Made by a program: the position numbers and the translations under genes
Part shown: positions 4,964 to 31,922 of the stretch, piece by piece
Position numbering within the stretch: the first letter of the stretch is position 1
How the letters are laid out: each line of letters begins with the position of its first letter
Assembly: GCA_017463125.1 (NCBI GenBank)
Contig: JAFTPV010000013.1
Span: 79,926-143,925 of the forward strand
DNA from: Clostridia bacterium
GTDB taxonomy: Bacteria > Bacillota > Clostridia > Oscillospirales > CAG-272
Reading direction: 5' to 3'
Length of the DNA stretch: 64,000 bases
The notes under the pieces: generated by a model
Told to the model about the DNA's origin: nothing
Seen by the model: only the letters and a program-made list of their open reading frames with translations
Databases searched by the model: none

Positions 4964-5039
4964 CTGGGTGTGGCGCAGTTGGTAGCGCGCTACCTTGGGG
5001 TGGTAGAGGCCGCAAGTTCAAGTCTTGTCACTCAGACCA
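4964..5039 (+). tRNA. tRNA-Pro (anticodon GGG), CCA encoded
   Basis: Hand-folded 76-nt cloverleaf. Acceptor CTGGGTG/CACTCAG, D arm GCGC/GCGC, anticodon arm CTACC-TTGGGGT-GGTAG (GGG at 34-36, G37). T arm GCAAG-TTCAAGT-CTTGT, discriminator A, then CCA. Confidence 0.92.
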
Positions 5040-5045
5040 GAAAAA

Positions 5046-5080
5046 GCATAGAAAACAGCCGTTTTCTGTGCTTTTTTCTT
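5046..5080 (+). terminator. rho-independent terminator after tRNA-Pro
   Basis: Stem GCATAGAAAAC / GTTTTCTGTGC (one G-T pair), 4-nt loop, then TTTTTT. Confidence 0.7.
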
Positions 5081-5138
5081 TTGTTTTTAGCGGTTTTTCG
5101 TACTTTTTCGGTCAAACGGCCTCGCCAATAATTCCCTT

Positions 5139-5161
5139 GACCACAATAGCGACCACAATTG
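5139..5161 (+). repeat. tandem GACCACAAT half-sites (GACCACAATAGCGACCACAATT), left copy
   Basis: Near-identical to 31195-31218 (GACCACAATAAACGACCACAGTT), in the same orientation, about 100 nt inside the tRNA-derived repeat. Confidence 0.6.
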
Positions 5162-5346
5162 ATTTTCTACGTCAGAATAAAGGAGAACGTACGTTATAGT
5201 ACTGTATTTTTTATTTTACCTCCATATTTCGTTTTTTAGTTATCATTGATATTGATAATATTCAATAATTAAAGGCGTTAATCGTAGCTTGCGATTAACG
5301 CCTTTAAACTTTCTTCAAAATGCAAATTGCTTGATTTTATTGCCAA

Positions 5347-6477
5347 TTAAACGAAAGCCAATGCTTTATCAGAAATATATTCTTGCACACATCCAAATGT
5401 TTCAATTTTCTCAGATCCGTCAACCGTATTTTTCCTATATCTAAAAACACCAATATCTTGCGGAATCGTTGATATCTTGGTATTAGGCATAACTTTCTTG
5501 ATTTTTAAAGATATATCTTTATCTTTTTTTCCTTTGTTGCCTACCACAAAAAACTTACTCGATAAAGCCTTTATTCTTTCGATATCTTCTTCTGTGGGAA
5601 GCTTGCTGTTTTTATTGTATACCGTCGTTGCTGAAATAGGTTTTTCCTGCAATAATGTAGTCCAGATCTCATCTAAGTGTCCTGTTATGCTACCATGATG
5701 AGGAACCTTAAAAACCGATGATTTGGTTTTCGGATGTGCATATTCATTTACTATTTTCCCCCATCCATCCTCTTTTGAATTGGTAGATTCCATGTCGCTT
5801 CCTAGCAAAAAACCATCTCCATTATATTTCAATAGCAAAACTATGCTTAGCAAATTATCACTTGGAAAACAATACGATGTAGCTTGTTTCGATGACGGCA
5901 ACAGTATCTTATCAAGAAATCTAAATAAATCTTTGTCACTTGGAGACAGAGAATAAACCTCCGCTTCCTCTTCGTGTTCATTGGAATAGATTCTTTTATC
6001 TACTGTAGCAAAAATAACATTTTCCCCATTTCGATCACGAATAAAATCATATACTTTACGGAACTCTTTTGTACTAGGATTGTTCTCCTCAAAACCTCTT
6101 GAGATGTATTGATTGAATTTTTGTTCTCTGATTATCGGACTAATAACCAATTTTACCTCTTTGCTAGCCTCATTTAGTATATCAGAAATGCCAGATATAT
6201 GGTCTTGGTGCCAATGAGTCAATACAACTTCACTAATTGAGGAAATGGGCAAATTCAGGCTGTTCAAATAATCAATAGCTATAGGATTGCTCGTGCTCGA
6301 ATTAACGAAAGAATCTATTACTATAAATTTTTGATTTTTACAGCATAATACGATGCACTCTCCAAATCCACGACCAAAAATGGAGATCTCTATTTCATCA
6401 GCCGTCGGTGGAGTCTGAAACAACGATTGATCTAAAAAACTCTGTCCATTCATTAGCTTTTCTTTCTGCTTCCTCAA
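5347..6477 (-). CDS. ComEC/Rec2-type metallo-beta-lactamase-fold hydrolase (putative nuclease)
   Basis: 'VVLTHWHQDHISGI' (HxHxDH) and a later 'FKVPHHGS' motif, typical of ComEC-like MBL domains. The start may be the internal Met at 6453, because the ORF overlaps the upstream ORF. Confidence 0.75.
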   Translation of the reverse strand: MRKQKEKLMNGQSFLDQSLFQTPPTADEIEISIFGRGFGECIVLCCKNQKFIVIDSFVNSSTSNPIAIDYLNSLNLPISSISEVVLTHWHQDHISGISDILNEASKEVKLVISPIIREQKFNQYISRGFEENNPSTKEFRKVYDFIRDRNGENVIFATVDKRIYSNEHEEEAEVYSLSPSDKDLFRFLDKILLPSSKQATSYCFPSDNLLSIVLLLKYNGDGFLLGSDMESTNSKEDGWGKIVNEYAHPKTKSSVFKVPHHGSITGHLDEIWTTLLQEKPISATTVYNKNSKLPTEEDIERIKALSSKFFVVGNKGKKDKDISLKIKKVMPNTKISTIPQDIGVFRYRKNTVDGSEKIETFGCVQEYISDKALAFV

Positions 6478-7033
6478 TTTTTTGCGAACTCAATGCTCTT
6501 GTTCTTCTTAAAACAATTTTGGATATATTTGTTTGTTGACCTGTTTTCTGTGTTTCTTTTCCTATTAGCCAAACAAAGCTTGCTCCGATATTAATCAACG
6601 CTTTATCCGATGGATACTGCAAATCTTCAAAATCGAATTCTGCTAGAACTTTTTGAGTTTCATCAACAACACTTGTCAATACTGCTGTAAAGGTTTCTGA
6701 TTCAAAGTTTATTGTTTCAACAATACCATTGTATTGCTCTAAATATCTATAAAAAGTATCGGTATCGATCCTTTTATACTCTTTCGCTATATGCCTAATT
6801 GCAACTTCTACATTTTCAGACACTCTAACTTTTCCACCAGAAGAATTTAAATATAACAAATTAGAACTGGTAGCAAATTCATGTTCCGACTGCTTATCTG
6901 TCGTAACTACATTATCGTTCAGTGCAACCATTAAAGCATCCAATTCGTCTTCGTCTCGCAATTTAACAGGATAACTCTTATCCTCTTCACTAGCATCCAG
7001 ATCAATGTATGAAGAGTTTTTATTGTCAAACAT
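6398..7033 (-). CDS. hypothetical acidic protein (211 aa)
   Basis: ORF overlaps both neighbours (8 nt upstream, 56-80 nt downstream). No recognised motif. Confidence 0.5.
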   Translation of the reverse strand: MFDNKNSSYIDLDASEEDKSYPVKLRDEDELDALMVALNDNVVTTDKQSEHEFATSSNLLYLNSSGGKVRVSENVEVAIRHIAKEYKRIDTDTFYRYLEQYNGIVETINFESETFTAVLTSVVDETQKVLAEFDFEDLQYPSDKALINIGASFVWLIGKETQKTGQQTNISKIVLRRTRALSSQKIEEAERKANEWTEFFRSIVVSDSTDG

Positions 7034-7727
7034 CTTCCTTTAACACCTCTATCAATAAATCCTGCTGGAGATTTTTCATTTTATCAAAAGACAATTCAAA
7101 CAACTCATCCAAACGTTCCATTACATTATCAGCCATAGAAGCATCATCTTTAAAATCAGTATGACTATTGCAATTAATAAAAATACCCGGTTTTATGATA
7201 GCGGATGGTTGCAATGTCATTGCAATGTGCTCCGTATCGCTATCGCTATTTTTTTGCATAGTTATAGAAATCAAACCGCTTTTCCTATCATCGCCAGAAA
7301 CCTCGTCCTCTAGCAAAGATTTCCAATACTTTTTGGGAGCTAATCTATCTCCAACCAATTGGTACTTTGATTTATCTCCCACATTATAGTGTGCACTATA
7401 ATTTAGACCCATAGCACTGATAATTAAACCGCTGAATTTTTCAAAAGTCTTAATAACAAAATCTTTCAAAACAACAAACGGTTCTTTTTCTGCTATTACT
7501 TGAAATCTTTTCTGTTCAATACGTATATCCAATTGAGAAGTCTTAAACATAGTAATTTGATTGGAAACTACCATAGGAGAAGTTTTGTTGTTTTCTGCAA
7601 TATTGACTTCTTCAGGAGATATGATCTCATTTCGTTTAAACCATTCTGGTTGAAACATTAACGGATTAAAATCACCAATTAACACAATAGAACATTGATT
7701 TTTTTCAGGAATGTATGCGATTTCCAT
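7026..7727 (-). CDS. hypothetical protein (233 aa), first gene of the three-gene cassette
   Basis: Long ORF in an AT-rich region, co-directional with and overlapping the next ORF. No recognised motif. Confidence 0.55.
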   Translation of the reverse strand: MEIAYIPEKNQCSIVLIGDFNPLMFQPEWFKRNEIISPEEVNIAENNKTSPMVVSNQITMFKTSQLDIRIEQKRFQVIAEKEPFVVLKDFVIKTFEKFSGLIISAMGLNYSAHYNVGDKSKYQLVGDRLAPKKYWKSLLEDEVSGDDRKSGLISITMQKNSDSDTEHIAMTLQPSAIIKPGIFINCNSHTDFKDDASMADNVMERLDELFELSFDKMKNLQQDLLIEVLKEDV

Positions 7728-7963: not shown

Positions 7964-7988
7964 TTTTATTTGCTTTCTGCGTATCAAA
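7964..7988 (+). repeat. 25-bp direct repeat, left copy (candidate attL of the inner element): TTTTATTTGCTTTCTGCGTATCAAA
   Basis: 24/25 identical to 30857-30881. It lies about 220 bp from the end of the integrase genes. Confidence 0.6.
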
Positions 7989-8210: not shown

Positions 8211-9641
8211 TTACATGCTCATCTCGAGTCCAAGTGTGCCCTCTTCTCTTTCGCGGTTCATCTTGTCTATGAGCTCCGCAAGCTTTGCTTTGCATTCGTC
8301 TTCTGTTTTACCGTACACGTTCTCTGAGATTCGCTTTCCGTTAACGGTCGGGGTATATCTGCCCTGCCAGCAGTTCTTGCTGAGTTGCTTGACGTAGCCC
8401 GTGCCTGACTTGCGTTTTTTGCCCTTGTACGCCTCGAAATCGGGACGAGGGTATGACTTTCTCTCTTCCTTCTCTTCTTCCTCAAAATCGGCTTCTTCTG
8501 CGTTGCCGAAGGCTTTGTCAATCTTCGCGGCAGCGCTCTTCTGCATCTCGTCAGTGGTATGCGAATATGTATCCAGCGTTTCGCTGACCGAGGCATGTCC
8601 GAGGGTTGCAGACAGTGTCTTGACGTCCATTCCGTAGGCAAGCGACATGGTCGCATACGTGTGTCTCAGCGCGTGGAATTTCACGTGCTTGCATCCTGCG
8701 TGCTCAAGTATTTGCGACAGCTTCTTTCTGCACGCAGTGGGGTCTCTCGGCTTGTCCTCGTACACGGGTGACGGGAAGATCCAACGCGAGTTAACGCTCT
8801 CCTTGTATTCTCTCAGCATATCAAGCAGTGGTTTTTGAAGTATAATCGTGCGGTTTGAGGATTTTGTTTTCAGCGTACTCACTGTCGGCACTTTACCGAC
8901 CATGTTTATCTGCCTTGTAATTTTCACTTCACCGTTCTCGAAGTTTATGTCATTCCATTGAAGACCGAGGAGCTCGCCTCGTCTTAATCCTGTTCCGATA
9001 TCCAGCATAAACATTTCGAAGAAGCCTTCTTCCTTTGCCTGAATCATAAGCCGTTGCATCTCCTCCGGGGAGAGCACGTCCACCTCTGCCGAGCGCTTCG
9101 GAATCGGTGTGCATGCATCGGCAGGGTTTGAGAGTATCAGTCTATCCCTTACTGCGCGGTCGAGAGCTGCCTTGCAATGAAAATGGATACTCCTTATCGT
9201 TGTCATCGACAGTCCCTCTCCGTATATCTCCTGCCTGATGAGTCTTCCGCCATATCTGAGCTCCGCATAGAATCGCTCAAGCATACTTGCAGTAATGCTC
9301 TTTAACGGTATATCACCGATTTTGGGGATTATCTGATCATATATTCTGTGCTCGTAGGTTACACGGGTTGATGCTTTCAGTCCGAGCTTGCAATAGGTCT
9401 GATACCAATGATTCATCCAATCTCCAAACCTCATTTCGGGGCATATTTTGTACGATGCGACCGTGCCTATCTCTTGCTTCAGCTTTTCGAGCTTATCAAG
9501 GCACTCGCTCTTTGTTTTAGCGGTGACGTTTCTGGTCTTTGGATTGCCCTTTGAGTCATATCCTACGAAGACTCTTCCCTCCCATCTGCCGTCACTTTCT
9601 CTGTATCTTACTGTTCCTTCTCCGTTTTTTCTTTTTCCCAT
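8211..9641 (-). CDS. tyrosine recombinase/integrase with an extra C-terminal arm-type (AP2-like) DNA-binding repeat
   Basis: N-terminal 'GEGTVRYRESDGRWEGRV' arm-binding motif. Catalytic 'HALRHTYAT' and 'LGHASVSETLDTYSH'. After an acidic linker, the C-terminal 'GTGYVKQLSKNCWQGRYTPTVNGKR..YGKTEDECKAKL' repeats the N-terminal pattern. Confidence 0.9.
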   Translation of the reverse strand: MGKRKNGEGTVRYRESDGRWEGRVFVGYDSKGNPKTRNVTAKTKSECLDKLEKLKQEIGTVASYKICPEMRFGDWMNHWYQTYCKLGLKASTRVTYEHRIYDQIIPKIGDIPLKSITASMLERFYAELRYGGRLIRQEIYGEGLSMTTIRSIHFHCKAALDRAVRDRLILSNPADACTPIPKRSAEVDVLSPEEMQRLMIQAKEEGFFEMFMLDIGTGLRRGELLGLQWNDINFENGEVKITRQINMVGKVPTVSTLKTKSSNRTIILQKPLLDMLREYKESVNSRWIFPSPVYEDKPRDPTACRKKLSQILEHAGCKHVKFHALRHTYATMSLAYGMDVKTLSATLGHASVSETLDTYSHTTDEMQKSAAAKIDKAFGNAEEADFEEEEKEERKSYPRPDFEAYKGKKRKSGTGYVKQLSKNCWQGRYTPTVNGKRISENVYGKTEDECKAKLAELIDKMNREREEGTLGLEMSM

Positions 9642-10801
9642 ATTTTTAAATCCTTTCCAAATAAATCTGTCATAAAATTGTTTACTATTTTTGATGCATT
9701 TTTCTGCATATCCGTTGTTACGTGTGTGTATGTGTCGAGCGTAAACGAAGCATCCGTGTGCCCGAGTATTGCCGAGAGTGTTTTCGGATCGACTCCGCTT
9801 GAGGCAGCATGCGTTGCGAAGGTGTGTCTCAGATCGTGAAATCTTATATCGGGGAGCGCGGCTTCTCTCAGAAGACTTTTCAGTTTGTTATAAGCCGTTT
9901 GCGGATTCATCGGCTTGTTTAAATCATTTACGCTCGGGAATATCCATTCGCTCGTTGCATTCTTTTTCCTCTCTGAGAGCATTCTAGATACGCTTCTCGG
10001 GAGTATTATTTTCCTTCGGCTTCGCTCAGTTTTCGTTTCGCCTACCGTCACCTTTCCGTCCATATAGGTTGCCGATTTTCTGACCGACAGCTTTCTGTTC
10101 ACCTCATCGTAATCGCTCCATTTGAGAGCACATATTTCTCCTTTTCTAAGCCCCGTCATGCACTCGAGATAGAAGAAGTCGTGCCATCCCACATGCCCCT
10201 TTGCAATCTCAAGCAGTCTTTCCACCTCGGTTTCTTGGAGTATTGTTTTCTCCTTATAATCCGTTTTGGGAATTACCGCACCCTTTGTAGGATTTGAAGG
10301 AATAATCCTTTCCTTCACTGCACCGTCGAGTGCCTCGTGCAGAAGCATGTGCACCGAGCGTACCATTGAATTTGACAGTGCGAATCCGTCCTCGGGATGC
10401 TCTGTTGCTCTTCCCCCTTCTTTAAGTTGGTTATACATTTTCTGAATGTCGGAGGTTCGCAGATTCGTGATTGGCTTTTTACCTATGTAAGGAATCATAT
10501 GCGTTTCAATATAATTCTTGTATCCGCGATATGTTGTCGGTCTAATCATATGCTTTTTATAATTATCGAGCCAATCGATTAACCACTCACCGACTGTCAT
10601 TTGGCATTTTTCAACGAGGTTTGCACCAGCGTATCTGAATTTAAGCTCATTCAGCCTAGCCATTAGTGCTTTCTGTGTTTTCGCGGTGACGGTTTTGATA
10701 ATGCAAGTGCCGTCCTTTTTCTTACCGATGGTAATTCTTCCTTCCCATCTTCCGTCCTTACGCTTTCTTACCGTTCCGTCACCGTTAGGTCTTCTTCCCA
10801 T
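9608..10801 (-). CDS. tyrosine recombinase/integrase
   Basis: 'GDGTVRKRKDGRWEGRI' N-terminus, 'RFHDLRHTFATH', 'LGHTDASFTLDTYTH'. SD GAAGGTG lies upstream of ATG 10801. The 3' end overlaps the next integrase by 34 nt. Confidence 0.9.
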   Translation of the reverse strand: MGRRPNGDGTVRKRKDGRWEGRITIGKKKDGTCIIKTVTAKTQKALMARLNELKFRYAGANLVEKCQMTVGEWLIDWLDNYKKHMIRPTTYRGYKNYIETHMIPYIGKKPITNLRTSDIQKMYNQLKEGGRATEHPEDGFALSNSMVRSVHMLLHEALDGAVKERIIPSNPTKGAVIPKTDYKEKTILQETEVERLLEIAKGHVGWHDFFYLECMTGLRKGEICALKWSDYDEVNRKLSVRKSATYMDGKVTVGETKTERSRRKIILPRSVSRMLSERKKNATSEWIFPSVNDLNKPMNPQTAYNKLKSLLREAALPDIRFHDLRHTFATHAASSGVDPKTLSAILGHTDASFTLDTYTHVTTDMQKNASKIVNNFMTDLFGKDLKIWEKEKTEKEQ

Positions 10802-10900: not shown

Positions 10901-12268
10901 TCATATCAACGTTAGCTCCGCATTCCTTTTATCTTCGATTTCTCTGCGCTGGCGTTTATCAATTGTAGGTAGCTTCTTCGCATCGTCACCGCTGAGCTTA
11001 TCAGAGAATATATTACCGAGGTTTTTAAATAACCTTGTTACTGCCGTTGCGGACACACCTTTCCGCGACTCGTAATATTTAGTCTTCTGCGTATGATATT
11101 CTGAATCCTTTTTCTTATTACCGGGAGGAAGCATTTTGACCGCTTCCCCCTCTTCGTTTAGAAGAATTTTCATTGCTTCTCGAATGATATCATTTTTGAT
11201 ACTGTTGAATTCCTTGTTTTCGGATAACGGTATCTTCGGAGGCACGTTCCGCGAATACATTCTCTGTATTTTATATTTCTCCTCATACCACATATCGTAA
11301 AGCTTTGCTATATCCTCATCCTCTGCAAGCAAATCAACAATTGAATCAATTAAATCCTTCACGTCGCGCTTTAAGTATCCGTATACTTTTTTAGCTTTTG
11401 TATTATGTAATCGAATTGATAATTCAATAAGCTTTTGTCTTATTTCCTCGTTCTCATAAGTACCGTTTTCAATTCTTGATAATATTTCAGCGAGCTTTTC
11501 CTTGAAGTCGGATTTCAATTCATTTCTGATTTTTGTTTGCTCCTCTGCGATGTGATATATGTCATCTTGAAATATTGTATTTACAAGTGACGAGCGCATT
11601 CTTTGAATACCTATTTTTGATAAGTAACCTTCATCGCTTTTACTTGAATAAATAATAACGTGAATATGCGGATGATGGCTTTCGTTATGAAATGCACCGT
11701 ACCATTTTAATTCGCTTAAAGGTATTTTGAAGTTTCTTGCTATTTCTTCGGTTTTAGAGCCAATTACGTCGCGCCATCTTTTTGCATTATTAAACCCGAG
11801 CCGTTCCGCATCTTCTCTTCGAAGCGATACAATCATTGTCCACACGTTTCCGTCGTGATTTGCAATTTCCTCGGAAACCTTTTTGAGATTAATATTTTCA
11901 TCAATCGAAGAGAACAAACCGTGCGAGCCTGATTTCTCAACACGAGGTCTTGTTGCAATATAATCTGCATACGTTGCTTCGGTAATAAAAAGATTATTAT
12001 CCTCTATTGCTCTTGTAATGAATTCACTCGCATTTTTAATTGTCGGTGATTTTAAATAATCATCGTACTCTAGCATTTCTACACTGTCGGGATAATCGCG
12101 AATTATCTTTTCAATTAAATCAATTTGATTTTTAGTTACCTGACTTTCCGAATTGTTTTTCGGTAATTTCTCAACTCCCTCTCGTGTTGCAACGTATTTA
12201 ACGTAATTACCCTTGTGCTTTGCACTCTTCGGTTTATAATATTTGAATTTGGTAATTAAGTTTGCCAT
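10901..12268 (-). CDS. relaxase/mobilisation nuclease (histidine-triad type)
   Basis: 'FHNESHHPHIHVIIYS' metal-binding histidine motif typical of MobA/VirD2-like relaxases. N-terminal 'KYYKPKS..YVKYVATREGV' resembles Firmicute mobilisation relaxases. Confidence 0.75.
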   Translation of the reverse strand: MANLITKFKYYKPKSAKHKGNYVKYVATREGVEKLPKNNSESQVTKNQIDLIEKIIRDYPDSVEMLEYDDYLKSPTIKNASEFITRAIEDNNLFITEATYADYIATRPRVEKSGSHGLFSSIDENINLKKVSEEIANHDGNVWTMIVSLRREDAERLGFNNAKRWRDVIGSKTEEIARNFKIPLSELKWYGAFHNESHHPHIHVIIYSSKSDEGYLSKIGIQRMRSSLVNTIFQDDIYHIAEEQTKIRNELKSDFKEKLAEILSRIENGTYENEEIRQKLIELSIRLHNTKAKKVYGYLKRDVKDLIDSIVDLLAEDEDIAKLYDMWYEEKYKIQRMYSRNVPPKIPLSENKEFNSIKNDIIREAMKILLNEEGEAVKMLPPGNKKKDSEYHTQKTKYYESRKGVSATAVTRLFKNLGNIFSDKLSGDDAKKLPTIDKRQRREIEDKRNAELTLI

Positions 12269-24591: not shown

Positions 24592-24669
24592 TTTGATTTT
24601 TCTTTTTTATAATAGATGTTTTTATCATGAATTCATTTTTATTACTGGTTTAAGACACTCATAGCTCAG

Positions 24670-25398
24670 CTATGTTTTATCTTTGTTTAAATCCCCGGAT
24701 GTTTCCGTTTTAATGGGAATTCCAGACAGAATGTAACTGTACATATTTACATCAGGTGAATTATCTATCATCCTATATTTAGCATCTTCGGGAATATCTA
24801 AATCATCTGGAATATAATCTTCCGGATATCCCTTAAGCAATAAGAGTTCTTTAACCGTTAAAAATTTCAAATTAATATTGCTTGATAAAATATTATCATC
24901 TAAACAAATCTTGAACTTATTTTTTACTTCATCAATGAACTCCGAACAAATCATTTTTAAAATAAGATTATACACAATATCGGAGATTTTATCATAAATG
25001 AGCAACGAGGTAGCGTCCTCGGTTAATGGATTAAGTATTTCTCTGCCGTTTTCAATAGTTATATAATTTATTGCTGCGATATTCTTATGTGCATAGTAGT
25101 TTCTTATTTTCCTAACACAATTGTCTCCTTGATTCAAGAAATCATGTTCAATTTGTGTAATAATGCCCTTATCAAACAGTTTTCGATAAATCTCATATGT
25201 GTTTGAATTATAATCGTTAACTATGGACTTAGAAATGTTTTCTAGACAATTAAACAACACAGTAATGGCCGCAAACCCTTTATCCAATTTAAAAAGCTCT
25301 TCGCTCTGATCTAGACAAAGTGCACTAAACCTTGAGTGCTGCCATAAATAATCTAAGACTGTACTTTTGTCGTACAAAGGATTCATATATTTCTCCAT
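24670..25398 (-). CDS. HEPN-motif protein (possible Abi-type RNase), 242 aa
   Basis: 'VRKIRNYYAHKN' contains R-x4-H (RNYYAH). The protein looks all-helical. It lies inside the defence cluster. Confidence 0.45.
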   Translation of the reverse strand: MEKYMNPLYDKSTVLDYLWQHSRFSALCLDQSEELFKLDKGFAAITVLFNCLENISKSIVNDYNSNTYEIYRKLFDKGIITQIEHDFLNQGDNCVRKIRNYYAHKNIAAINYITIENGREILNPLTEDATSLLIYDKISDIVYNLILKMICSEFIDEVKNKFKICLDDNILSSNINLKFLTVKELLLLKGYPEDYIPDDLDIPEDAKYRMIDNSPDVNMYSYILSGIPIKTETSGDLNKDKT

Positions 25399-25502: not shown

Positions 25503-25522
25503 AAGTGCCATGGAGGTGCGCC

Positions 25523-26827
25523 ATGGGCAAAATTGGAGAATTTATTACACGCGAACGGGAAAAGCAGGATATTTCCATCAGAGGCCTGTCGAAAATAACC
25601 GGAATCAGCCATAGCGAGATTAATAAAATCGAGAGCGGAGAGAGAGCAACACCTTCTCCGCATCATTTAAAAACCATTGCCGATGCTCTGGGTATTAATC
25701 AAATTGAATGTTTTAAGATAGCTGGCTATATTGATGAATCACAACATGAGGGTTCATCGTCCAGAACATTAATTCTTTCGGATTTTACAAACGACGAATT
25801 TAACCAAATCCAGCAGTATGCCTCATTTATCAGAGCACAACGAGTTTCAAATCAAGGAGAAGAACCTACTGTGAAGAAAAATAATTTAAAAGTTGCAAGT
25901 TTGTTTGCCGGTATCGGCGGCATATGTTATGGCTTTAAACAAGCAGGTGCCGAGATTGTTTGGGCAAATGAGATTGACAAAGACGCTTGCAAAACTTACA
26001 GACACAACTTTGGAGACGAATATCTTGTTGAAGGCGATATTAAACTTGTCGATCCTAGCGATATTCCTGATATTGATATCTTAAACGGCGGATTCCCCTG
26101 CCAAGCCTTTTCCGTAGCCGGCTACAGAAAGGGATTTGAAGACGAACGAGGAAACCTTTTCTTCGAAATTGAAAGATTGCTTAGAGTTAAGCGTCCGCGC
26201 GCTATCCTTCTTGAGAATGTTAAGAACCTCGAAGGCCACGACCACGGAAATACTTTTAAAGTAATCAAAAGCCGTCTTGAAGACCTTGGCTATCACGTGC
26301 ATCACAAAGTTCTGAACACTATGGAATACGGAGATGTTCCCCAGCACCGCGAACGTATCTATATTGTAGGCTTCCTTTCGGAAGAGGCCTATAATAAGTT
26401 CAGATATCCCGATCCTATTCCTTTAACCAAAACCATACATAGCATCATCGATGTTACCGAAAAGAAACCGCTAGGAATGTACTATAACAATTCAAAGTAC
26501 TATCCCGAACTTGAAAAAGCCATGGTGAATCCCAATACAGTATATCAGTGGCGCCGCGTTTACTGCAGAGAAAACAAGAGCAATGTATGCCCTACTCTTA
26601 CAGCAAACATGGGTACAGGAGGACACAATGTTCCCCTCATTATTGATAACTACGGATTCAGAAAATTAACTCCCGAAGAGTGCGTTGGATTCCAAGGCTT
26701 CCCTGAAGAGTTTGAGTTCCCTGCTGATATTTGCAATGCTAGTAAGTATAAGCAGGCTGGTAATTCAGTATCTGTTCCTGTTATCAAGAGAATTGCCGAA
26801 GAGATGGTAAAAGTATTAGTTGATTAA
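25523..26827 (+). CDS. C5 DNA methyltransferase with N-terminal XRE-type HTH domain
   Basis: HTH 'ISIRGLSKITGISHSEINKIESGER'. MTase motifs 'LFAGIGG', 'GGFPCQAFSVAG', 'LLENVKNL', 'QHRERIYIVG', 'GNSVSVPV'. ATG 25523 is preferred because of the GGAGGTG SD at 25512-25518. Confidence 0.9.
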   Translation: MGKIGEFITREREKQDISIRGLSKITGISHSEINKIESGERATPSPHHLKTIADALGINQIECFKIAGYIDESQHEGSSSRTLILSDFTNDEFNQIQQYASFIRAQRVSNQGEEPTVKKNNLKVASLFAGIGGICYGFKQAGAEIVWANEIDKDACKTYRHNFGDEYLVEGDIKLVDPSDIPDIDILNGGFPCQAFSVAGYRKGFEDERGNLFFEIERLLRVKRPRAILLENVKNLEGHDHGNTFKVIKSRLEDLGYHVHHKVLNTMEYGDVPQHRERIYIVGFLSEEAYNKFRYPDPIPLTKTIHSIIDVTEKKPLGMYYNNSKYYPELEKAMVNPNTVYQWRRVYCRENKSNVCPTLTANMGTGGHNVPLIIDNYGFRKLTPEECVGFQGFPEEFEFPADICNASKYKQAGNSVSVPVIKRIAEEMVKVLVD

Positions 26828-26858
26828 CCCAAATGCCGATCGCAAGGTCGGCATTTTT

Positions 26859-28019
26859 TTATTCCGTTTCTTCCTCGTCAATTCCGTGGAATTGTTCATA
26901 CGTACCGATTTCAGCAAAATCAACCGAGTAATCCAGATCTCCGTGCTTTGTGAAAATAACACTGTCTATGCCGAAACGCTCGAGCATTTCATAAGTAACC
27001 AAAGTTCTCTCGGGAAGCTCAAACACATTTCTAAGGAGCCATTCACCGAGAATCTTGTTAGGATTACTCATTATCGCCTTATTATCTTGCTGACATACCT
27101 TAGCGGGAATCACTGTTCCGTCAGGCATTCTAAGATCGAAAACGGTATCGCGGTCTGGGAAGAATCCGCGCGTTCTTTCTCTGTCTTCAGCCGGATACGG
27201 AATGTAAACTTCATCGGGATGCCTTTTGCGTCCTCCTGCATTCCACTGGTTCAAACCGCTTTTTTCTGCAACGAACTTAGTACCGTCAGATTTGGTAGAA
27301 TACAGACGCAGGCAAACCTGATTTTCTTTAGGAACTACGGGCTGCGGTATGACCTGCTCAGCAACAGTTTCTGCGCTGACTCCGGGCATAAGATTCATCA
27401 AACACGTGTATGGATCGTCCATAATCTCAACATTGAAATTATCGAGCAATTCCATATCCTCAAATATCATATAAAGTGTATTCTTGGATGTGCTGAAGTG
27501 ATAGGTATGGCGGCCGTCAGTGAAATATGTGTTGTTCACGTTTCCGCGGTTTGTTATCAAGGAAATGTTTTCAATATCAATGTAATCGAAAGCACACTCG
27601 AGAACCTGCATCGCACCTGGAACTCTTTTGATGACATGGTAGATCATATCATCAATACCGTTCAAATTCTTGGTAACTCTGATTCTTTCGTTTCTATACT
27701 CTGCAATCTTCTTAACAAGTTCCAAGCCGGCAAGGCCTGCAAATGTTTCGCGAAGCTTTCCAAACTCAGCTACTTTCTGATCGTCCTGCCCTGTCCATGT
27801 TTTCAGACCTATTCCTATACGGTTTTTCTTGGCATCTGCAGAGCAATCAAGCCTTGCAAGATTCTCCGCTTCGAAGTATTTGCAAAAGATATTTTCATGC
27901 GCTCTGTAAGCCAAATACGGACAGTCGCTTTCGGAAAACAACTGCGTCAGACTTCCTACAATAGAGAGCATCTTCTTATAATTTTCTCTTTGGATTTGAG
28001 GCTGTAATTCGTAAAACAT
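26859..28019 (-). CDS. putative type II restriction endonuclease (386 aa)
   Basis: Convergent with the HTH-MTase gene and last gene of the C-protein/vsr operon. Possible '..D..IGIGLKT' nuclease core. No confident family assignment. Confidence 0.5.
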   Translation of the reverse strand: MFYELQPQIQRENYKKMLSIVGSLTQLFSESDCPYLAYRAHENIFCKYFEAENLARLDCSADAKKNRIGIGLKTWTGQDDQKVAEFGKLRETFAGLAGLELVKKIAEYRNERIRVTKNLNGIDDMIYHVIKRVPGAMQVLECAFDYIDIENISLITNRGNVNNTYFTDGRHTYHFSTSKNTLYMIFEDMELLDNFNVEIMDDPYTCLMNLMPGVSAETVAEQVIPQPVVPKENQVCLRLYSTKSDGTKFVAEKSGLNQWNAGGRKRHPDEVYIPYPAEDRERTRGFFPDRDTVFDLRMPDGTVIPAKVCQQDNKAIMSNPNKILGEWLLRNVFELPERTLVTYEMLERFGIDSVIFTKHGDLDYSVDFAEIGTYEQFHGIDEEETE

Positions 28020-28034
28020 ATTCTTCCTGCCTAA

Positions 28035-28913
28035 CTAAAAATATTTTCTTAAAGAGTTAATATCCCGCATATCTCCCGCCTGAACATAATAATTGTCAGC
28101 GTCCATTCTGACTCTGCCGTTCAGCATTGCGTTTTGGGGGATAATATATTGATTTTCAATAATATACCTTAGATCATCTCTTGTAATATATCCAACGCAA
28201 TTATACGTCCACTGACGGCTCATAACCAGCTCTTTCAAATAAGAATAATCCGTTATGTCCTGGTTTAGCAATCTGGCATCGCGCAAAATATCTTCGCAGC
28301 TAGGATCTAATCGGACAAAAATAACAATGTCATATATTCCGTTACCAAAATCTTTGTTCGGAATGTATACAGCATTCTCGTCCCAGTCATTTGCTTCTAA
28401 AAGCAAAAGCTGCCCGAACCGTTTTGTAGACTTAATAGATATCTCGTAACCGTTTACGGAAAGATCTGCTGAATCCCATTTTCCTAGATCATATGTGGCA
28501 AAATCCGGCGATACATCATATCCGAGGCCGTGAAACAGATTGCTTACTGCACACTCCGCCAGTTTCCCTTGAAATGTATTTGCAAAGATTTCTCCGTTTC
28601 TGCGTGAATGTGTTCCTCCGCTTCGGTGGTCTCTGTGAGCACCCGCTCTTCCGAAGGTCATTTTATAAGCAAATTCAAAAACAGTTTCAACCGTTTCTGT
28701 TTTAAATGATCTGTCTGCACAGTACGGCACTTTGCGCGTGGTGTAATAGCTGTTTCCCTCGCGCCGCAAATATTCAAAATTGACATCGCATGCACCGTAC
28801 GGGGCAACAGGGTAATTTCTCTCTTTACGCTCTGTGCCAGTTACTGTCCGACGCGTTGTATCTTTATTTATAAATGCATCAATGGCATCAATTATTTTCT
28901 TCCAAAAGCTCAT
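28035..28913 (-). CDS. hypothetical protein, possible second nuclease/subunit of the R-M locus (292 aa)
   Basis: 'DSADLSVNGYEISIKSTK' is (D/E)xK-like. It overlaps the vsr stop by 4 nt (ATGA) and ends 15 nt upstream of the next ORF. Confidence 0.4.
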   Translation of the reverse strand: MSFWKKIIDAIDAFINKDTTRRTVTGTERKERNYPVAPYGACDVNFEYLRREGNSYYTTRKVPYCADRSFKTETVETVFEFAYKMTFGRAGAHRDHRSGGTHSRRNGEIFANTFQGKLAECAVSNLFHGLGYDVSPDFATYDLGKWDSADLSVNGYEISIKSTKRFGQLLLLEANDWDENAVYIPNKDFGNGIYDIVIFVRLDPSCEDILRDARLLNQDITDYSYLKELVMSRQWTYNCVGYITRDDLRYIIENQYIIPQNAMLNGRVRMDADNYYVQAGDMRDINSLRKYF

Positions 28914-29332
28914 AGCGCTCCCTGTTTTGCAATAGCGTCTAGTATTGTCTGTATGCAGCCACCCGTATTTTTACGTATTTCTTTTTCCCAAAAGCGTAAA
29001 ACCGTCCAACCGTCTTTAGTTAGTTGTTCGGTTACCTCTTGATCCCGTTCTATGTTCCTCAGAATTTTCTGTTTCCAGTAAGCAGCATTTGTACCTATCC
29101 TGTCAGTACTTTCATGATAGTTTTTTCCGTGCCAAAACTCACTGTCACAGAAAACGGCAATTTTATATTTGGTCAAAGCTATATCGGGTTTTCCGATTAG
29201 TTTTTTATAATTTTTTCTATATCGGTATCCGCGAGACCATAATTCTTTGCGAAGGATAATTTCTATTTCAGTATCCTTGCTTTTTATGGCCTGCATGTTC
29301 TTTTTTCTCTGTTCAGGTGTATGATTGTCCAT
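28910..29332 (-). CDS. vsr: very short patch repair endonuclease
   Basis: 'TPEQRKKNMQAIKSKDTEIE..LR..LWSRGYRYR...GKPDIAL...AVFCDSEFWHG' is the typical Vsr pattern. Confidence 0.88.
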   Translation of the reverse strand: MDNHTPEQRKKNMQAIKSKDTEIEIILRKELWSRGYRYRKNYKKLIGKPDIALTKYKIAVFCDSEFWHGKNYHESTDRIGTNAAYWKQKILRNIERDQEVTEQLTKDGWTVLRFWEKEIRKNTGGCIQTILDAIAKQGAL

Positions 29333-29338
29333 AAAAAG

Positions 29339-29554
29339 TCAATTTTTAGTGTCAGGAACAATTTCCATTATATCATTAACCGTACAGTCCAAAGCGGTGC
29401 AGATTTTCACCAATACATCACTGGAAATAGTTGCACCGTCTCTCTTCATCTTAGCAAGCGTTGCCGGACTGATCCCCGCTTTTTCAGCAAGATCTTTGCT
29501 TTTCATTTCACGGTCTATCAGCATTTTGAATAGCTTCTTATAGCTTGCAGCCAT
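29339..29554 (-). CDS. XRE/Cro-type HTH regulator (candidate R-M controller protein)
   Basis: 'MKSKDLAEKAGISPATLAKMKRDGATISSDVLVKICTALDCTVNDIM'. ATG 29554 is preferred because of the GAGGTGG SD. It lies directly upstream of vsr. Confidence 0.8.
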   Translation of the reverse strand: MAASYKKLFKMLIDREMKSKDLAEKAGISPATLAKMKRDGATISSDVLVKICTALDCTVNDIMEIVPDTKN

Positions 29555-29718
29555 TTTCCACCTCATAAAAATAAATATTTTTATACATTTAACATTGTAC
29601 CACTTTTATTAATAAAAATCAAGTAGGGGGTCTAAAAGAAATTACAAGAGCGTTGATTTTTTTACAAAATCATACATTTATCGCTTATAAAAACAAGGGG
29701 ATGTTTTTCCCCTTGCTT

Positions 29719-30834
29719 TTACCTTATAGTTATTTTTCTGCAATTCAACTTGTGATTCAATGCAAACCGCATCTCATTCTCATCGCAAAACAGTATTTTA
29801 GTTCCATCCTCACAAAAAACCGAATTAAATTGCTGAAACACAAATTTCGGCAAGACATTAATTTTTACTGTTGCTTTACTAACGGTATTTCTAGTTAGAT
29901 ACGTCTCTTTGACATGGACGCAAGATCTCACTCGGTAGTATGAGCAAAACAATGCATCCTCTGCATCGTATATTTTAGAGCTTCCCATAATAACTGAAAG
30001 ATATTGATCAGGAATTCCTGAGCCGTATTTCTCACCGAAACGTACTTTTGTCCTATCAAAAGTTTCTTGATCCATATAATATTTGCTTTTGACCAAGAAT
30101 AGCGCAGTTTTTGGCGAGATAGGAACATATGAATACAAAAAGTCGGAATCCATAGTGTTTTCTATAATGCAAAATCTATCTGAAATACAAAGCATGGGAG
30201 AGTCGGCTCTTCCTATAGCAATATGCAATCCCACGGTATATGTCGAATATACGTATTGCGGATCAATCATCCAATGCGAAATTTGCGATTCTATATTTTC
30301 ATCTAAAGAAAGTATCTTTTCAAAATCCCGCATTATTTGTTTAGTTATGCCGACAGCCTGGTCCTGACTTTCCGCGCGGTGCAATCCCCACAAATAATTA
30401 TTGCTTTGATAAATGCCCGACTCGTCTTCTTTTATGACCTCGCTTGTAAAACTATGCCTGCTTCCGCACAGGACACAATATAACTTTAGCAATTCCAGCT
30501 CTTTGCCTGTAAGAACAACCTCCGACTCAGCTTCATCAATTTTCAATATAATCGGTGCAATATATGTTTCGAATCTCGAAATCCTATCTTCCAATTCGCT
30601 GTTTTCTTCGCCCAAAGAGTAATAGTATTTCAATGTGTAATCTTTAGAACTATCCCATTTCCTTATATTTTCGATTTCCTTGTCGTATATCTTTCCTCCG
30701 GAGTTGATCCATTTCTTGATATGAAACTTCGGATATAAGTGATTGTTCTTTTTAGGCCTATGTTTTGTCATATAATAAAGTCCTTCTATTAGCACGGTTT
30801 GATTTATTATATCATAAATTTTTAGTGCTTTCAA
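29719..30834 (-). CDS. DUF4238-like protein (candidate single-gene defence protein)
   Basis: The N-terminal 'NHLYPKFHIKKW' resembles the DUF4238 'HyvPqfyLknF' signature. The true start may be the Met at about 30771 (MTKHRPKK). Confidence 0.45.
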   Translation of the reverse strand: MKALKIYDIINQTVLIEGLYYMTKHRPKKNNHLYPKFHIKKWINSGGKIYDKEIENIRKWDSSKDYTLKYYYSLGEENSELEDRISRFETYIAPIILKIDEAESEVVLTGKELELLKLYCVLCGSRHSFTSEVIKEDESGIYQSNNYLWGLHRAESQDQAVGITKQIMRDFEKILSLDENIESQISHWMIDPQYVYSTYTVGLHIAIGRADSPMLCISDRFCIIENTMDSDFLYSYVPISPKTALFLVKSKYYMDQETFDRTKVRFGEKYGSGIPDQYLSVIMGSSKIYDAEDALFCSYYRVRSCVHVKETYLTRNTVSKATVKINVLPKFVFQQFNSVFCEDGTKILFCDENEMRFALNHKLNCRKITIR

Positions 30835-30856
30835 TTATTTCGAATTAATTTTATCC

Positions 30857-30881
30857 TTTTATTTGCTTACTGCGTATCAAA
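30857..30881 (+). repeat. 25-bp direct repeat, right copy (candidate attR of the inner element): TTTTATTTGCTTACTGCGTATCAAA
   Basis: 24/25 identical to 7964-7988. Confidence 0.6.
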
Positions 30882-31194
30882 TTTTGCACCTTAAGGCAGA
30901 AGCACTTTTTATATTTTCAGCACCGATATGCTTTTTGTACCGTTTGGATATTATGAAAAGGTAAAGCCGATGGGGATTTGAGTGATTCCTCATCGGCTGT
31001 TTTCTTTGTATATAGCGGCGTAAATTTTGAAAAATATTATTGGGAAAAGACTTGATTTTTTATGGATTCAGAGCTACAATATAGCAAACTCGAGTGAATA
31101 TTATGTTTTCTTTTGTTTACATTTTAATGTTCGTTCGTTTGGTGTATTAGCACAAAATTCTCCGCCATTATTCGTTATATTTGAGTTTAGAAAA

Positions 31195-31218
31195 CGACCA
31201 CAATAAACGACCACAGTT
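31195..31218 (+). repeat. tandem GACCACA half-sites (CGACCACAATAAACGACCACAGTT), right copy
   Basis: Matches 5139-5161. It lies about 112 nt inside the degenerate tRNA fragment. Confidence 0.6.
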
Positions 31219-31329
31219 ATGCTTGGATTACTTGGATTTAAGAGCATACCGTGCGAAATTCAGCAGAGTTTTCCTACACAAAAGCACCGAAAAGCACTAA
31301 ATTATAATGTAAACAATTGTTTACCCGCG

Positions 31330-31374
31330 TTGGGGTGATAGAGACCGCAAGTTCAATTGTTGTCGTTTGGAGCA
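31330..31374 (+). repeat. degenerate copy of the tRNA-Pro 3' half (candidate outer attR / relic att site)
   Basis: TTGGGGTGATAGAGACCGCAAGTTCAATTGTTGTCGTTTGGAGCA against tRNA 4995-5039: 36/45 identical by hand alignment. No 5' half is present, so it is not a functional tRNA. Confidence 0.65.
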
Positions 31375-31904: not shown

Positions 31905-31922
31905 AATTTTACTCTCCCAATG

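What the first reader, a model, noticed from the sequence alone, without database searches (positions are those of the whole stretch)
4964..31374. tRNA-Pro(GGG)-associated island bounded by a degenerate copy of the tRNA 3' half
Seen: positions 4995-5039 of an intact tRNA-Pro recur at 31330-31374. I count 36/45 identical positions by hand alignment, starting in the anticodon loop, with no 5' half. Everything between is visibly more AT-rich than the flanking radC-trmB-prfC and PFL/alaS regions. It encodes recombinases, mobilisation functions and defence genes.

Established: tyrosine-recombinase elements integrating into tRNA 3' ends regenerate the tRNA and leave a displaced partial copy at the far end.

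Inference: 5040-31374 was acquired by site-specific integration. The divergence of the distal copy suggests either an old event or a different donor attP.
Basis: partly seen in the sequence, partly recalled or inferred. Interest (0 to 1): 0.55.

Follow-up and report, generated by a model that had tools for sequence, protein, structure and literature searches.

The report
Mobilizable island at a tRNA-Pro hotspot
A 26-kb mobile DNA element carrying two integrases, a relaxase and several phage-defence gene sets sits in the 3' end of a proline tRNA gene, next to the decayed remains of an older element; this is an ordinary kind of genomic island, now mapped precisely.

Summary
tRNA-Pro(GGG) lies at 4964-5039. 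Its 3' part (4995-5039) recurs at 31330-31374 (36/45; core 25/27; none expected by chance).

Both junctions are recombination junctions:
- Other strains match the window up to the tRNA 3' end, then carry a different element.
- Sister-species contigs share the right flank, including an orthologous degenerate copy. Homology stops at 31329|31330, and a different island follows.

The enclosed 26.3 kb is an integrative mobilizable element. It has an overlapping tyrosine-recombinase pair (IntB-IntA), a MobL relaxase, an Xis-like gene, no detected mating-pore genes, and defence cargo. Relatives of the pair lie 1-7 kb from tRNA-Pro genes in many genomes. GACCACA repeat pairs sit inside both ends.

Refinements:
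- The distal copy is an old displaced tRNA 3' half that predates the present island.
- DNA beyond it (31375 to at least 31904) is a decayed older island of the same kind, with deformylase and DUF4238 pseudogenes. The locus is a tandem array.

Unexplained: a family-specific motif on the gene strand occurs three times, at module borders (7964-7988, 16998-17018, 30857-30881).

Verdict: a new member of a known kind. Interest is modest.

The parts
4964..5039 (+). Intact tRNA-Pro(GGG). This is attL; its part 4995-5039 is the direct repeat.
   Evidence: ARAGORN. Rfam tRNA, 62 bits. The 76 nt are identical in L007, L097 and L100; L101, whose contig ends inside the tRNA, holds only the identical 3' part.
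5040..5200 (+). Element arm next to the tRNA: terminator hairpin 5041-5076, a T-rich tract, and two GACCACA repeats at 5139 and 5151.
   Evidence: The same motif occurs 2-3 times at 110-160 nt from the tRNA in relatives L097, L100 and L101. It is absent from the unrelated element in L007.
5347..7727 (-). Cargo 1: a three-gene operon. The genes are 233 aa (7026-7727), 211 aa (6398-7033) and an MBL-fold protein (5347-6477). It is a candidate defence system.
   Evidence: Pfam Lactamase_B. PADLOC and NCBIfam give weak MBL-type hits (LmuA, Avs1a, 6A-MBL). The same trio occurs elsewhere, next to a pPIWI_RE operon and in another element.
7964..7988 (-). Family motif, copy a (TTTGATACGCAGAAAGCAAATAAAA), 220 nt after the IntA stop codon.
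   Evidence: Homology to relative L091 ends here. In L104 the motif lies 8 nt after the stop of an IntA homologue.
8211..9641 (-). IntA, a 476-aa tyrosine recombinase. Its C-terminus repeats its N-terminal arm-binding-type domain.
   Evidence: Pfam Phage_integrase 1.8e-26. Catalytic R, HxxR, H and Y are invariant in the family alignment. The N/C repeat is 38% identical.
9608..10801 (-). IntB, a 397-aa tyrosine recombinase. Its end overlaps the IntA start by 34 nt.
   Evidence: Pfam 4.4e-29. It is 38% identical to IntA. The pair is conserved in tandem wherever enough upstream sequence was held for relatives down to 47% identity.
10901..12666 (-). Mobilisation module: MobL-family relaxase (10901-12268) and a 136-aa accessory gene (12256-12666).
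   Evidence: Pfam MobL 1.8e-27. The same gene order is seen in L095 and L100.
12667..12989 (-). Intergenic region upstream of the mob operon. It holds a conserved inverted-repeat block (CACATCGGACGGCAGAGCCGACCGA) and is the candidate oriT.
   Evidence: The block is shared by the window, L095, L096 and L100. The oriT role is an inference.
12990..13642 (-). Xis-like HTH_17/AlpA gene (12990-13178) and HTH_36 gene (13208-13642).
   Evidence: Precomputed Pfam on identical contigs. Pfam HTH_36 8.9e-11.
13742..16696 (-). 984-aa backbone protein of unknown function.
   Evidence: No Pfam, NCBIfam or PDB match. phrog_8308, 7.6e-90, unknown function. Partly held on relative L095, where it runs off the contig start.
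16998..17018 (-). Family motif, copy b (TTGCACGCTGTAAGCAAAGAA), between cargo 2 and the backbone.
17137..25398 (-). Cargo 2a. It holds a 349-aa protein with a PD-T4-3-like C-terminus; a peptide deformylase (18210-18635); a C5 methyltransferase (18632-19729); a Response_reg_2 protein (19716-21428); a GHKL ATPase/HEF_HK protein (21425-24490); and a 242-aa protein.
   Evidence: The deformylase recurs in related elements L097, L100, L105 and L108.
25505..30834 (.). Cargo 2b. It holds an HTH-C5 methyltransferase (25505-26827, + strand); an NgoFVII-type restriction enzyme (26859-28019, - strand); a 292-aa protein; Vsr (28910-29332); an HTH_26 gene (29339-29554); and a DUF4238 gene (29719-30834).
30857..30881 (-). 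Family motif, copy c (TTTGATACGCAGTAAGCAAATAAAA), 449 nt inside the distal repeat.
   Evidence: A similar motif lies about 375-400 nt inside the scar in L105.
30882..31329 (+). Element arm next to the distal repeat. It is non-coding and holds two GACCACA repeats at 31196 and 31209.
   Evidence: L105 has the reverse-complement motif (two TGTGGTC and one GTGGTC) 115-165 nt from its scar.
31330..31374 (+). attR: a displaced, degenerate tRNA-Pro 3' part (36/45).
   Evidence: An orthologous copy with shared derived changes is present in L105-L107, and homology begins at 31330.
31393..31904 (-). Remains of an older island: a deformylase pseudogene (31393-31653, residues 3-93) and a DUF4238 pseudogene (31639-31904, internally deleted).
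   Evidence: tblastn 1e-15 and 4e-19. The DUF4238 gene is intact (296 aa) in L105.
31923..32666 (-). CAAX/CPBP protease gene. It probably belongs to the older island.
   Evidence: Pfam Rce1-like. In L108 the homologue lies inside an island bounded by a pseudo-tRNA-Pro with an attL-type hairpin.

Best explanation
Positions 5040-31329 are one intact integrative mobilizable element of about 26.3 kb. It entered the chromosome by tyrosine-recombinase site-specific recombination at tRNA-Pro(GGG). Strand exchange most likely took place in the 7-nt anticodon loop (TTGGGGT). The element supplies a perfect replacement for the tRNA from the anticodon loop to the 3' end (attL, 4995-5039). The previously resident 3' part was pushed 26 kb away (attR, 31330-31374), where it is no longer selected and has decayed. 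The recombinase is probably the overlapping, co-conserved pair IntB-IntA, helped by the Xis-like protein and bound to the GACCACA repeats found about 100-135 nt inside each end. Transfer would use the MobL relaxase and another element's mating pore. The rest of the element is cargo: two restriction-modification sets, a GHKL/two-component-like methylase system, a Vsr, a deformylase and a three-gene MBL-fold operon. The locus is a hotspot with layers. The DNA right of attR is the deleted remnant of an earlier element of the same family, and other strains and species carry different occupants. Shown here: the repeat, both junctions, the gene content, the association of the family with tRNA-Pro, and the older remnant. 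Inferred: the crossover position, which integrase does what, the role of the GACCACA repeats, and present-day mobility.
For: - Repeat: 36/45 overall, 25/27 core, none expected by chance.
- Left junction: L006 and L007, from other samples, are identical to the window up to the tRNA end, then carry a different element.
- Right junction: L105-L107 share the flank and an orthologous scar. Homology stops at 31329|31330, and a different island with the same arm motif follows.
- Family link to tRNA-Pro: IntA relatives at 58-59% identity have IntB-IntA, then 2-7 kb of variable cargo, then tRNA-Pro(GGG) in the same orientation, in different host flanks. Among 39 IMG/VR loci at about 44-55% identity, 25 have tRNA-Pro(TGG) 1-4 kb downstream.
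- Arm repeats: there are only 7 GACCACA in 64 kb. Four of them form two same-strand pairs just inside the two ends.
- Integrases look intact: Pfam hits and invariant catalytic residues.
- Mobilisation: MobL relaxase and an Xis-like gene are present, and no mating-pore or coupling-protein family appeared in the Pfam scan or the precomputed gene calls.
- Older remnant: deformylase and DUF4238 pseudogenes lie directly right of attR.
- Composition: GC is 0.381 in the island against 0.468 and 0.463 in the flanks.
Against: - No empty site and no circular junction was found in any collection. The genome scan gave no tRNA-Pro and no similarity to the window's right flank upstream of prfC in the nearest species.
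- attL and attR differ at 2 of the first 27 positions and are very different after position 27. Excision would rebuild a damaged tRNA, which may select against it.
- The distal ends of the relatives at tRNA-Pro could not be fetched, so the attR structure is known only for the window and L105.
- In the tRNA-Pro(TGG) relatives the GACCACA clusters lie on the 5' side of the tRNA. The arm-site reading does not explain this.
- A 24/25 direct repeat (7964-7988 and 30857-30881) brackets the integrase-bearing part and could mark a different element boundary.
Confidence: 0.8

Rival explanations
1. Nested (matryoshka) model. The integrase-bearing element is only 7964-30881, bounded by the 25-nt repeat TTTGATACGCAGWAAGCAAATAAAA. 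It sits inside a separate, integrase-less islet at tRNA-Pro, made of 5040-7963 plus 30882-31329.
For: The repeat is 24/25 identical and far beyond chance. Copy a lies just past the IntA stop codon, where element ends usually are. Homology to the 94%-identical relative L091 ends at this repeat. In L104 the motif is 8 nt after an IntA homologue, and the DNA beyond it ends with an integrase of the other (L007) type. Nested elements are common in Firmicutes (PMC12084326).
Against: The motif is not a two-copy boundary. The window has a third copy at 16998-17018. Relatives hold 1-3 copies each, all on the gene strand, including one 60-180 nt from the tRNA. Homology breakpoints among close relatives fall at several places, not only at the motif. 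The pair lies within 1-7 kb of a tRNA-Pro gene in all three GGG cases examined and in 25 of the 39 tabulated IMG/VR loci; in most of the rest, 10 kb downstream of IntA was held and no tRNA gene was found there. GACCACA pairs occur at both tRNA-derived ends together with this integrase family, and are absent from the L007-type element.
Confidence: 0.08
2. The island is a fixed fossil. Its present content arrived by homologous recombination between conserved anchors (the tRNA on one side, the old scar and flank on the other) with DNA from related elements, not by its own integrases, and it can no longer excise.
For: Among close relatives the cargo between IntA and the tRNA is swapped wholesale, with breakpoints at conserved sequences, including exactly at the tRNA 3' end. 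attR is degenerate, and excision would damage the tRNA. The scar is older than the island.
Against: Both integrase genes, the Xis-like gene and the relaxase are full length with conserved catalytic residues. Arm repeats are kept at both ends. The 8 nt at the start of the repeat, which include the anticodon loop, are identical in attL and attR, which is what strand exchange needs. The island is present or replaced among strains with more than 99.5% identical flanks.
Confidence: 0.1
3. The element is a phage satellite or defective prophage rather than a conjugatively mobilised element.
For: Relatives are filed in IMG/VR and as 'Bacteriophage sp.' from human faecal samples. The 984-aa backbone protein matches only a phage protein family of unknown function.
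Against: No capsid, terminase, portal or tail family was found among the ORFs scanned. A MobL relaxase with an accessory gene is present and conserved in the relatives examined (L095, L100 and L115).
Confidence: 0.02

Closest known systems
Genomic islands and integrative elements that insert into tRNA genes through a tyrosine integrase, with crossover in the anticodon loop (sublocation classes of Williams 2002; from my own knowledge)
   Same: An intact tRNA at one end. A direct repeat running from the anticodon loop to the tRNA 3' end at the other end. The element restores the tRNA. Integrase-family-specific repeats lie in both arms. Occupancy varies between strains.
   Different: The integrase is a conserved overlapping pair, not a single gene. 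The integrase genes are 3 kb from the tRNA, with cargo in between. The distal repeat is only 80% identical because it is an inherited old scar.
Integrative and mobilizable elements of Firmicutes and their composite forms: tandems, matryoshkas and remnants (PMC5704250, PMC5357655, PMC12084326)
   Same: Integration and excision module plus a relaxase, with no mating pore. Defence and restriction-modification cargo. It lies side by side with a decayed remnant at the same att site.
   Different: I could find no description of this family (IntB-IntA pair, MobL relaxase, deformylase, tRNA-Pro target) in the papers searched. It is also absent from the annotated phage and plasmid collections.
Accretion of elements at one att site, as for ICESt1/ICESt3 and their cis-mobilizable elements in Streptococcus thermophilus (from my own knowledge)
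   Same: A newer element integrates into the att site that flanks a resident element. The internal att copy then separates the newer element from the older, decaying one.
   Different: Here the older element has lost its own integrases and its arm; a deletion runs from the scar into its deformylase gene. No third, outermost att copy was found.
Paired tyrosine recombinases: XerC/XerD (PMC2731167) and TnpA/TnpB of Tn554 (from my own knowledge)
   Same: Two paralogous tyrosine recombinases are encoded side by side and kept together through evolution, which suggests a heteromeric enzyme.
   Different: There is no evidence here that both are needed or that they bind different half-sites. The target is a tRNA gene, not dif or att554. 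IntA has an extra C-terminal copy of the arm-binding-type domain.
Variable defence hotspots flanked by conserved genes in P2/P4-like phages and satellites (Rousset et al. 2022; from my own knowledge)
   Same: A conserved backbone has slots in which unrelated defence gene sets replace one another between close relatives.
   Different: The carrier is a relaxase-bearing element in Clostridia. The slots are bordered by a short motif on the gene strand, which has not been reported for those phages.

Membership tests
tRNA-integrating tyrosine-recombinase element | An intact tRNA gene at one end | tested here: met
   tRNA-Pro(GGG) at 4964-5039.
tRNA-integrating tyrosine-recombinase element | A direct repeat of the tRNA 3' part at the far end, without a 5' half | tested here: met
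   31330-31374, 36/45; core 25/27 with none expected by chance.
tRNA-integrating tyrosine-recombinase element | A tyrosine recombinase with catalytic residues, encoded between the repeats | tested here: met
   IntA and IntB hit Pfam PF00589. R, HxxR, H and Y are invariant in the 20-sequence alignment.
tRNA-integrating tyrosine-recombinase element | The junctions coincide with breaks in synteny against relatives that lack the element | tested here: met
   Left junction: L006 and L007. Right junction: L105-L107. In each case the alternative is another occupant, not an empty site.
tRNA-integrating tyrosine-recombinase element | The integrase family is specifically associated with the same target gene elsewhere | tested here: met
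   tRNA-Pro(GGG) in L097, L100 and L101. tRNA-Pro(TGG) in 25 IMG/VR loci.
tRNA-integrating tyrosine-recombinase element | Excision to a circle and repair of attB | not testable with these tools
   No read data are available, and no empty site or circle was found in the collections searched.
Integrative and mobilizable element (IME) | Encodes a relaxase | tested here: met
   MobL PF18555, 1.8e-27, residues 1-374.
Integrative and mobilizable element (IME) | Lacks a type IV secretion system (VirB4-type ATPase, mating-pore proteins) | tested here: met
   No such family appeared among the ORFs scanned or in the precomputed Pfam hits on the gene calls of identical contigs. Several proteins remain of unknown function.
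Integrative and mobilizable element (IME) | An oriT recognised by the relaxase | tested here: inconclusive
   A conserved inverted-repeat block lies upstream of the mob operon. No nick site is known for this relaxase family.
Integrative and mobilizable element (IME) | Transfer with a conjugative helper | not testable with these tools
   This needs an experiment.
Tandem (accretion) array of elements at one att site | Remains of a second element of the same kind directly beyond the internal att copy | tested here: met
   Deformylase pseudogene at 31393-31653 and DUF4238 pseudogene at 31639-31904. The deformylase is a recurrent gene of the family.
Tandem (accretion) array of elements at one att site | A further att copy at the outer end of the older element | tested here: not met
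   No other copy reaches 60% identity in the window. The extent of the older remnant is therefore unknown.
Heteromeric paired tyrosine recombinases (Xer-like or Tn554-like) | Two adjacent paralogous recombinase genes kept as a pair across the family | tested here: met
   IntB-IntA occur in tandem wherever enough upstream sequence was held, down to 47% identity. They overlap by 34 nt in the window.
Heteromeric paired tyrosine recombinases (Xer-like or Tn554-like) | Both proteins are required and bind different half-sites | not testable with these tools
   This needs genetics or biochemistry.

The most novel reading that the evidence does not exclude
The orientation-locked motif (about 25 nt; consensus in relatives TCAAAATTTG-N5-GCAGTARRCAAAGAA) marks every module border of this element family. 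It could be a recombination site that one of the two tyrosine recombinases uses to capture and swap cargo modules. That would make these tRNA-Pro elements an integron-like cassette platform for defence genes in gut Clostridia. The second integrase and the extra DNA-binding domain of IntA would then have a dedicated role.
Probability: 0.1. Interest if true: 0.7.

Novelty: new member of a known kind. Interest (0 to 1): 0.33.

Why it matters
The locus gives a cleanly delimited example of how one tRNA gene in an uncultured gut Clostridia lineage (Acutalibacteraceae-like) serves as a landing pad that is used again and again. A current element, the scar of the tRNA half it displaced, and the wreck of an older element all lie in a row. 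It defines a widespread, apparently undescribed element family with paired integrases that targets tRNA-Pro genes and carries interchangeable defence cargo. This is useful for annotating metagenomes, where relatives are currently filed as viruses. It also points to a portable three-gene MBL-fold operon and to a family-specific border motif as things worth testing. As a genomic island, though, it is ordinary.

Tried and rejected
- **Empty site through synteny.** A genome-contig scan with prfC found nearest species at only 90-91% amino-acid identity. They keep prfC-trmB-radC but have no tRNA-Pro and no similarity to the window's right flank upstream of prfC. This gave no empty site.
- **Exact-protein look-ups.** Look-ups of the CAAX protease, PFL and the 143-aa gene returned only contigs with the same island or contigs that end at the tRNA. 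The last look-up (P0122) ended 130 nt after the CAAX gene.
- **The motif as element boundary (nested model).** Considered seriously, then downgraded once a third window copy and many same-strand copies in relatives were found.
- **The motif as oriT.** Rejected as the main idea, because a different conserved inverted-repeat block lies upstream of the mob operon.
- **The motif as a plain terminator.** Strong hairpins lie next to it, but on different sides in different copies, and the upstream hairpins lack a following T-run.
- **The motif as a scar of serial integrations.** No tRNA-like sequence lies beside the window copies.
- **Cassette exchange at the motif.** Breakpoints between close relatives fall at several positions, not only at the motif.
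- **Other checks.** The Rfam gathering scan found only the tRNA. A single-protein scan of viral contigs with IntA found nothing, and a profile was needed. The PDB sequence search for the 984-aa protein found nothing.

Full report
**1. The observation**

The window holds one tRNA gene, tRNA-Pro(GGG), at 4964-5039 on the + strand. Its last 45 nt (4995-5039) recur at 31330-31374 with 36 identities. The first 27 nt match 25/27. A search allowing three mismatches finds only these two sites, and none of 100 shuffles gave any match.

The repeat starts at the first base of the anticodon loop. No 5' half accompanies the distal copy.

GC is 0.381 between the repeats, 0.468 to the left, and 0.463 beyond 36.7 kb. 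The drop is uneven: the backbone is 0.417. The DNA just right of the distal copy is also low, at 0.411 for 31375-36700.

**2. What lies between the repeats**

Nearly all genes are on the - strand. The order below runs from the distal repeat towards the tRNA.

| Feature | Coordinates |
|---|---|
| Non-coding arm | 30882-31329 |
| DUF4238 gene | 29719-30834 |
| Small HTH gene | 29339-29554 |
| Vsr | 28910-29332 |
| 292-aa protein of unknown function | 28035-28913 |
| NgoFVII-type restriction enzyme | 26859-28019 |
| Its HTH-C5 methyltransferase (+ strand) | 25505-26827 |
| 242-aa protein | 24670-25398 |
| GHKL ATPase/HEF_HK protein | 21425-24490 |
| Response_reg_2 protein | 19716-21428 |
| C5 methyltransferase | 18632-19729 |
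| Peptide deformylase | 18210-18635 |
| 349-aa protein | 17137-18186 |
| 984-aa protein of unknown function | 13742-16696 |
| HTH_36 gene | 13208-13642 |
| Xis-like HTH_17 gene | 12990-13178 |
| 136-aa gene | 12256-12666 |
| MobL relaxase | 10901-12268 |
| IntB | 9608-10801 |
| IntA | 8211-9641 |
| Three-gene operon ending in an MBL-fold protein | 7727-5347 |

IntA and IntB are both full-length tyrosine recombinases and are 38% identical to each other. The catalytic residues are invariant in the family alignment. No mating-pore or coupling-protein family was found. The element therefore fits an integrative mobilizable element rather than a conjugative one.

**3. The left junction is real**

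Contigs from two other samples (L006, L007) are 99.5-99.96% identical to the window from prfC to the tRNA 3' end, then diverge. L007 carries a different element there. Its two integrases are only 23-29% identical to IntA and IntB. The same species therefore has alternative occupants at this tRNA.

**4. The right junction is real, and the distal copy is an old scar**

Homologues of the CAAX protease gene on the right flank led to sister-species contigs L105-L107 (87% amino-acid identity). They align with the window from the M16 peptidase gene through DUF6512, CAAX and DUF4238 to a degenerate tRNA copy. The alignment stops at 31329|31330.

The L105 copy shares the window's derived changes (GTGATAG; GTCGYTTGGA) and the following 60 nt. 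The two copies are therefore orthologous.

Beyond the scar L105 has a different island (HTH_26, McrBC-like genes, DUF5343, HEPN, TipAS, deformylase, ResIII). That island has the reverse-complement arm motif (two TGTGGTC and one GTGGTC) 115-165 nt from the scar.

Three things follow:
- Position 31330 is a recombination junction.
- The scar predates the split of the two lineages.
- The islands beside it have turned over since.

The divergence reflects the age of the displaced tRNA half, not necessarily the age of the present island.

**5. The integrase family goes with tRNA-Pro**

IntA has thousands of homologues. Close relatives (92-93% identity) have the same backbone, from the HTH_36 gene to IntB-IntA.

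Relatives at 58-59% identity (L097, L100, L101) have IntB-IntA, then 2-7 kb of unrelated cargo, then tRNA-Pro(GGG) on the opposite strand. That is the geometry of the window, but in different host flanks. The tRNA is identical in all of them, over the part each contig holds.

A profile search of IMG/VR gave 80 loci. Of the 39 tabulated (best IntA identity about 44-55%), most show the tandem pair and 25 have tRNA-Pro(TGG) 1-4 kb downstream of IntA.

**6. Arm repeats**

GACCACA occurs seven times in the 64 kb on both strands. Four copies form two same-strand pairs:
- at 5139/5151, which is 100-112 nt inside the tRNA end;
- at 31196/31209, which is 121-134 nt inside the scar.

The same motif occurs 2-3 times at 110-160 nt from the tRNA in L097, L100 and L101, and near the scar in L105. 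It is absent from the L007 element.

I read these as arm-type integrase sites. If so, both ends belong to one element of this family. That is an inference. In the tRNA-Pro(TGG) relatives the clusters lie on the 5' side of the tRNA, among ~203-nt repeats that each hold a tRNA 5' half. I cannot explain this.

**7. Mechanism**

The repeat begins at the anticodon loop, and homology with L105 begins at the same base. The simplest reading is strand exchange within the loop TTGGGGT, with the anticodon stem arms as core sites. This is the anticodon-loop class known for tRNA-targeting integrases (my own knowledge).

After integration the working tRNA is host 5' part plus element 3' part. The old 3' part sits at the far end.

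The scar's acceptor-strand changes are all transitions that would still pair by G:U with the 5' strand. Its anticodon and T stems each have a mismatch, and CCA reads GCA. Excision would therefore rebuild a poor tRNA, which may hold the element in place.

**8. The right flank is an older island**

tblastn finds two pseudogenes right of the scar:
- a deformylase pseudogene at 31393-31653 (residues 3-93, 42% identity, 1e-15), which ends 19 nt from the scar;
- a DUF4238 pseudogene at 31639-31904, which has lost about 620 nt relative to the intact 296-aa gene of L105.

The deformylase is a recurrent gene of this element family. In L108 the CAAX homologue lies inside an island. That island also holds a deformylase gene and ends at a pseudo-tRNA-Pro with an attL-type hairpin.

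The locus is thus a tandem array: the tRNA, the current element, the scar, then an older element cut down by deletion. Such tandems and remnants are common in related bacteria (PMC12084326). I found no outer att copy, so the extent of the older remnant is open. Low GC suggests it may reach about 36.7 kb.

**9. The second repeat**

A 24/25 repeat (7964-7988 and 30857-30881) brackets the integrase-bearing part. Homology to a 94%-identical relative (L091) ends at the left copy. In L104 the same sequence lies 8 nt after the stop codon of an IntA homologue. This suggested a nested element.

Further work argued against a simple boundary:
- The window has a third copy at 16998-17018; three hits against 0.04 expected.
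- A loose pattern finds 29 copies in 626 kb of related loci, all on the integrase strand, and none in 1.25 Mb of unrelated loci.
- Copies lie after IntA, 60-180 nt from the tRNA, and upstream of IntB.
- Breakpoints among close relatives are not confined to the motif.

The motif marks module ends and lies beside strong hairpins. It is not the probable oriT. Its function is unknown. A recombination role in cargo exchange is the most interesting reading left open.

**10. Comparison with what is known, and novelty**

The thing is a tRNA-integrating integrative mobilizable element in a tandem with a remnant, which is a known kind. I found no description of this particular family in the literature searched. 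Annotated phage and plasmid collections hold only unannotated faecal 'Bacteriophage sp.' contigs at about 50% identity.

Three features may be new within the kind:
- the conserved overlapping integrase pair;
- the C-terminal repeat of the arm-binding-type domain in IntA;
- the border motif.

**11. Verdict**

The island is a new member of a known kind, and interest is modest (0.33).

Noticed in passing
window 7964-7988, 16998-17018, 30857-30881 (all - strand): A family-specific motif (core CGCWGWAAGCAAAKAA) occurs three times at module borders, against 0.04 expected. In relatives 29 of 29 copies lie on the integrase strand, and there are none in 1.25 Mb of control loci. Its function is unknown.
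   Followed up: partly
window 8211-9641 (-), IntA residues 3-54 and 408-457: IntA carries a C-terminal repeat of its N-terminal arm-binding-type domain (38% identity). The extension is conserved across the family, and IntB lacks it. The IntB end overlaps the IntA start by 34 nt.
   Followed up: partly
window 5347-7727 (-): The trio of a 233-aa protein, a 211-aa protein and an MBL-fold protein is a portable operon. It is also found beside a pPIWI_RE operon (L199) and in another element (L194-L197). It matches no defined defence system beyond weak MBL-type hits, so it is a candidate uncharacterised defence system.
   Followed up: partly
L114 4629-4668, 4832-4871, 5036-5075; L138 12563-12602, 12766-12805: In the tRNA-Pro(TGG) relatives, units of about 203 nt lie just beyond the tRNA 5' end, together with TGTGGTC clusters. 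Each unit holds an identical 40-nt tRNA-Pro 5' half. This is not explained by 3'-end integration.
   Followed up: no
L007 about 1996-2026; L105 7697-7725: Further degenerate tRNA-Pro-like fragments (about 19/23) lie inside other occupants of the same hotspot. The one in L105 is in inverted orientation. They suggest more layers of past integration.
   Followed up: no
L142 3345-3508: A second copy of the IntA 3' end plus the motif lies between two cargo blocks. It looks like the scar of a tandem pair of elements fused by deletion.
   Followed up: no
L104 8148-8924 (-): An IMG/VR contig has an IntA homologue, the motif and 6.5 kb of defence-like cargo. It then has an integrase of the other (L007) type, so the two element families can lie side by side.
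   Followed up: no
window 18210-18635 (-): A peptide deformylase gene is a recurrent component of this element family (window, L097, L100, L105, L108). Its role on a mobile element is unclear.
   Followed up: no
window 29535-29557 and 33190-33212: A 23-nt near-identity covers the shared first codons (MAASY) of the HTH_26 gene in the island and of the 166-aa gene in the older remnant.
   Followed up: no
window 30965-31003 and 34173-34211: Two terminator-like hairpins are 85% identical over 39 nt. One lies inside the island arm and one in the right flank.
   Followed up: no
window about 50943-51419 (-): An IS200/IS605-type Y1 transposase gene lies beside a GC dip at 51-52 kb. Further GC dips at 58-59 kb and 60-61 kb were not examined.
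   Followed up: no
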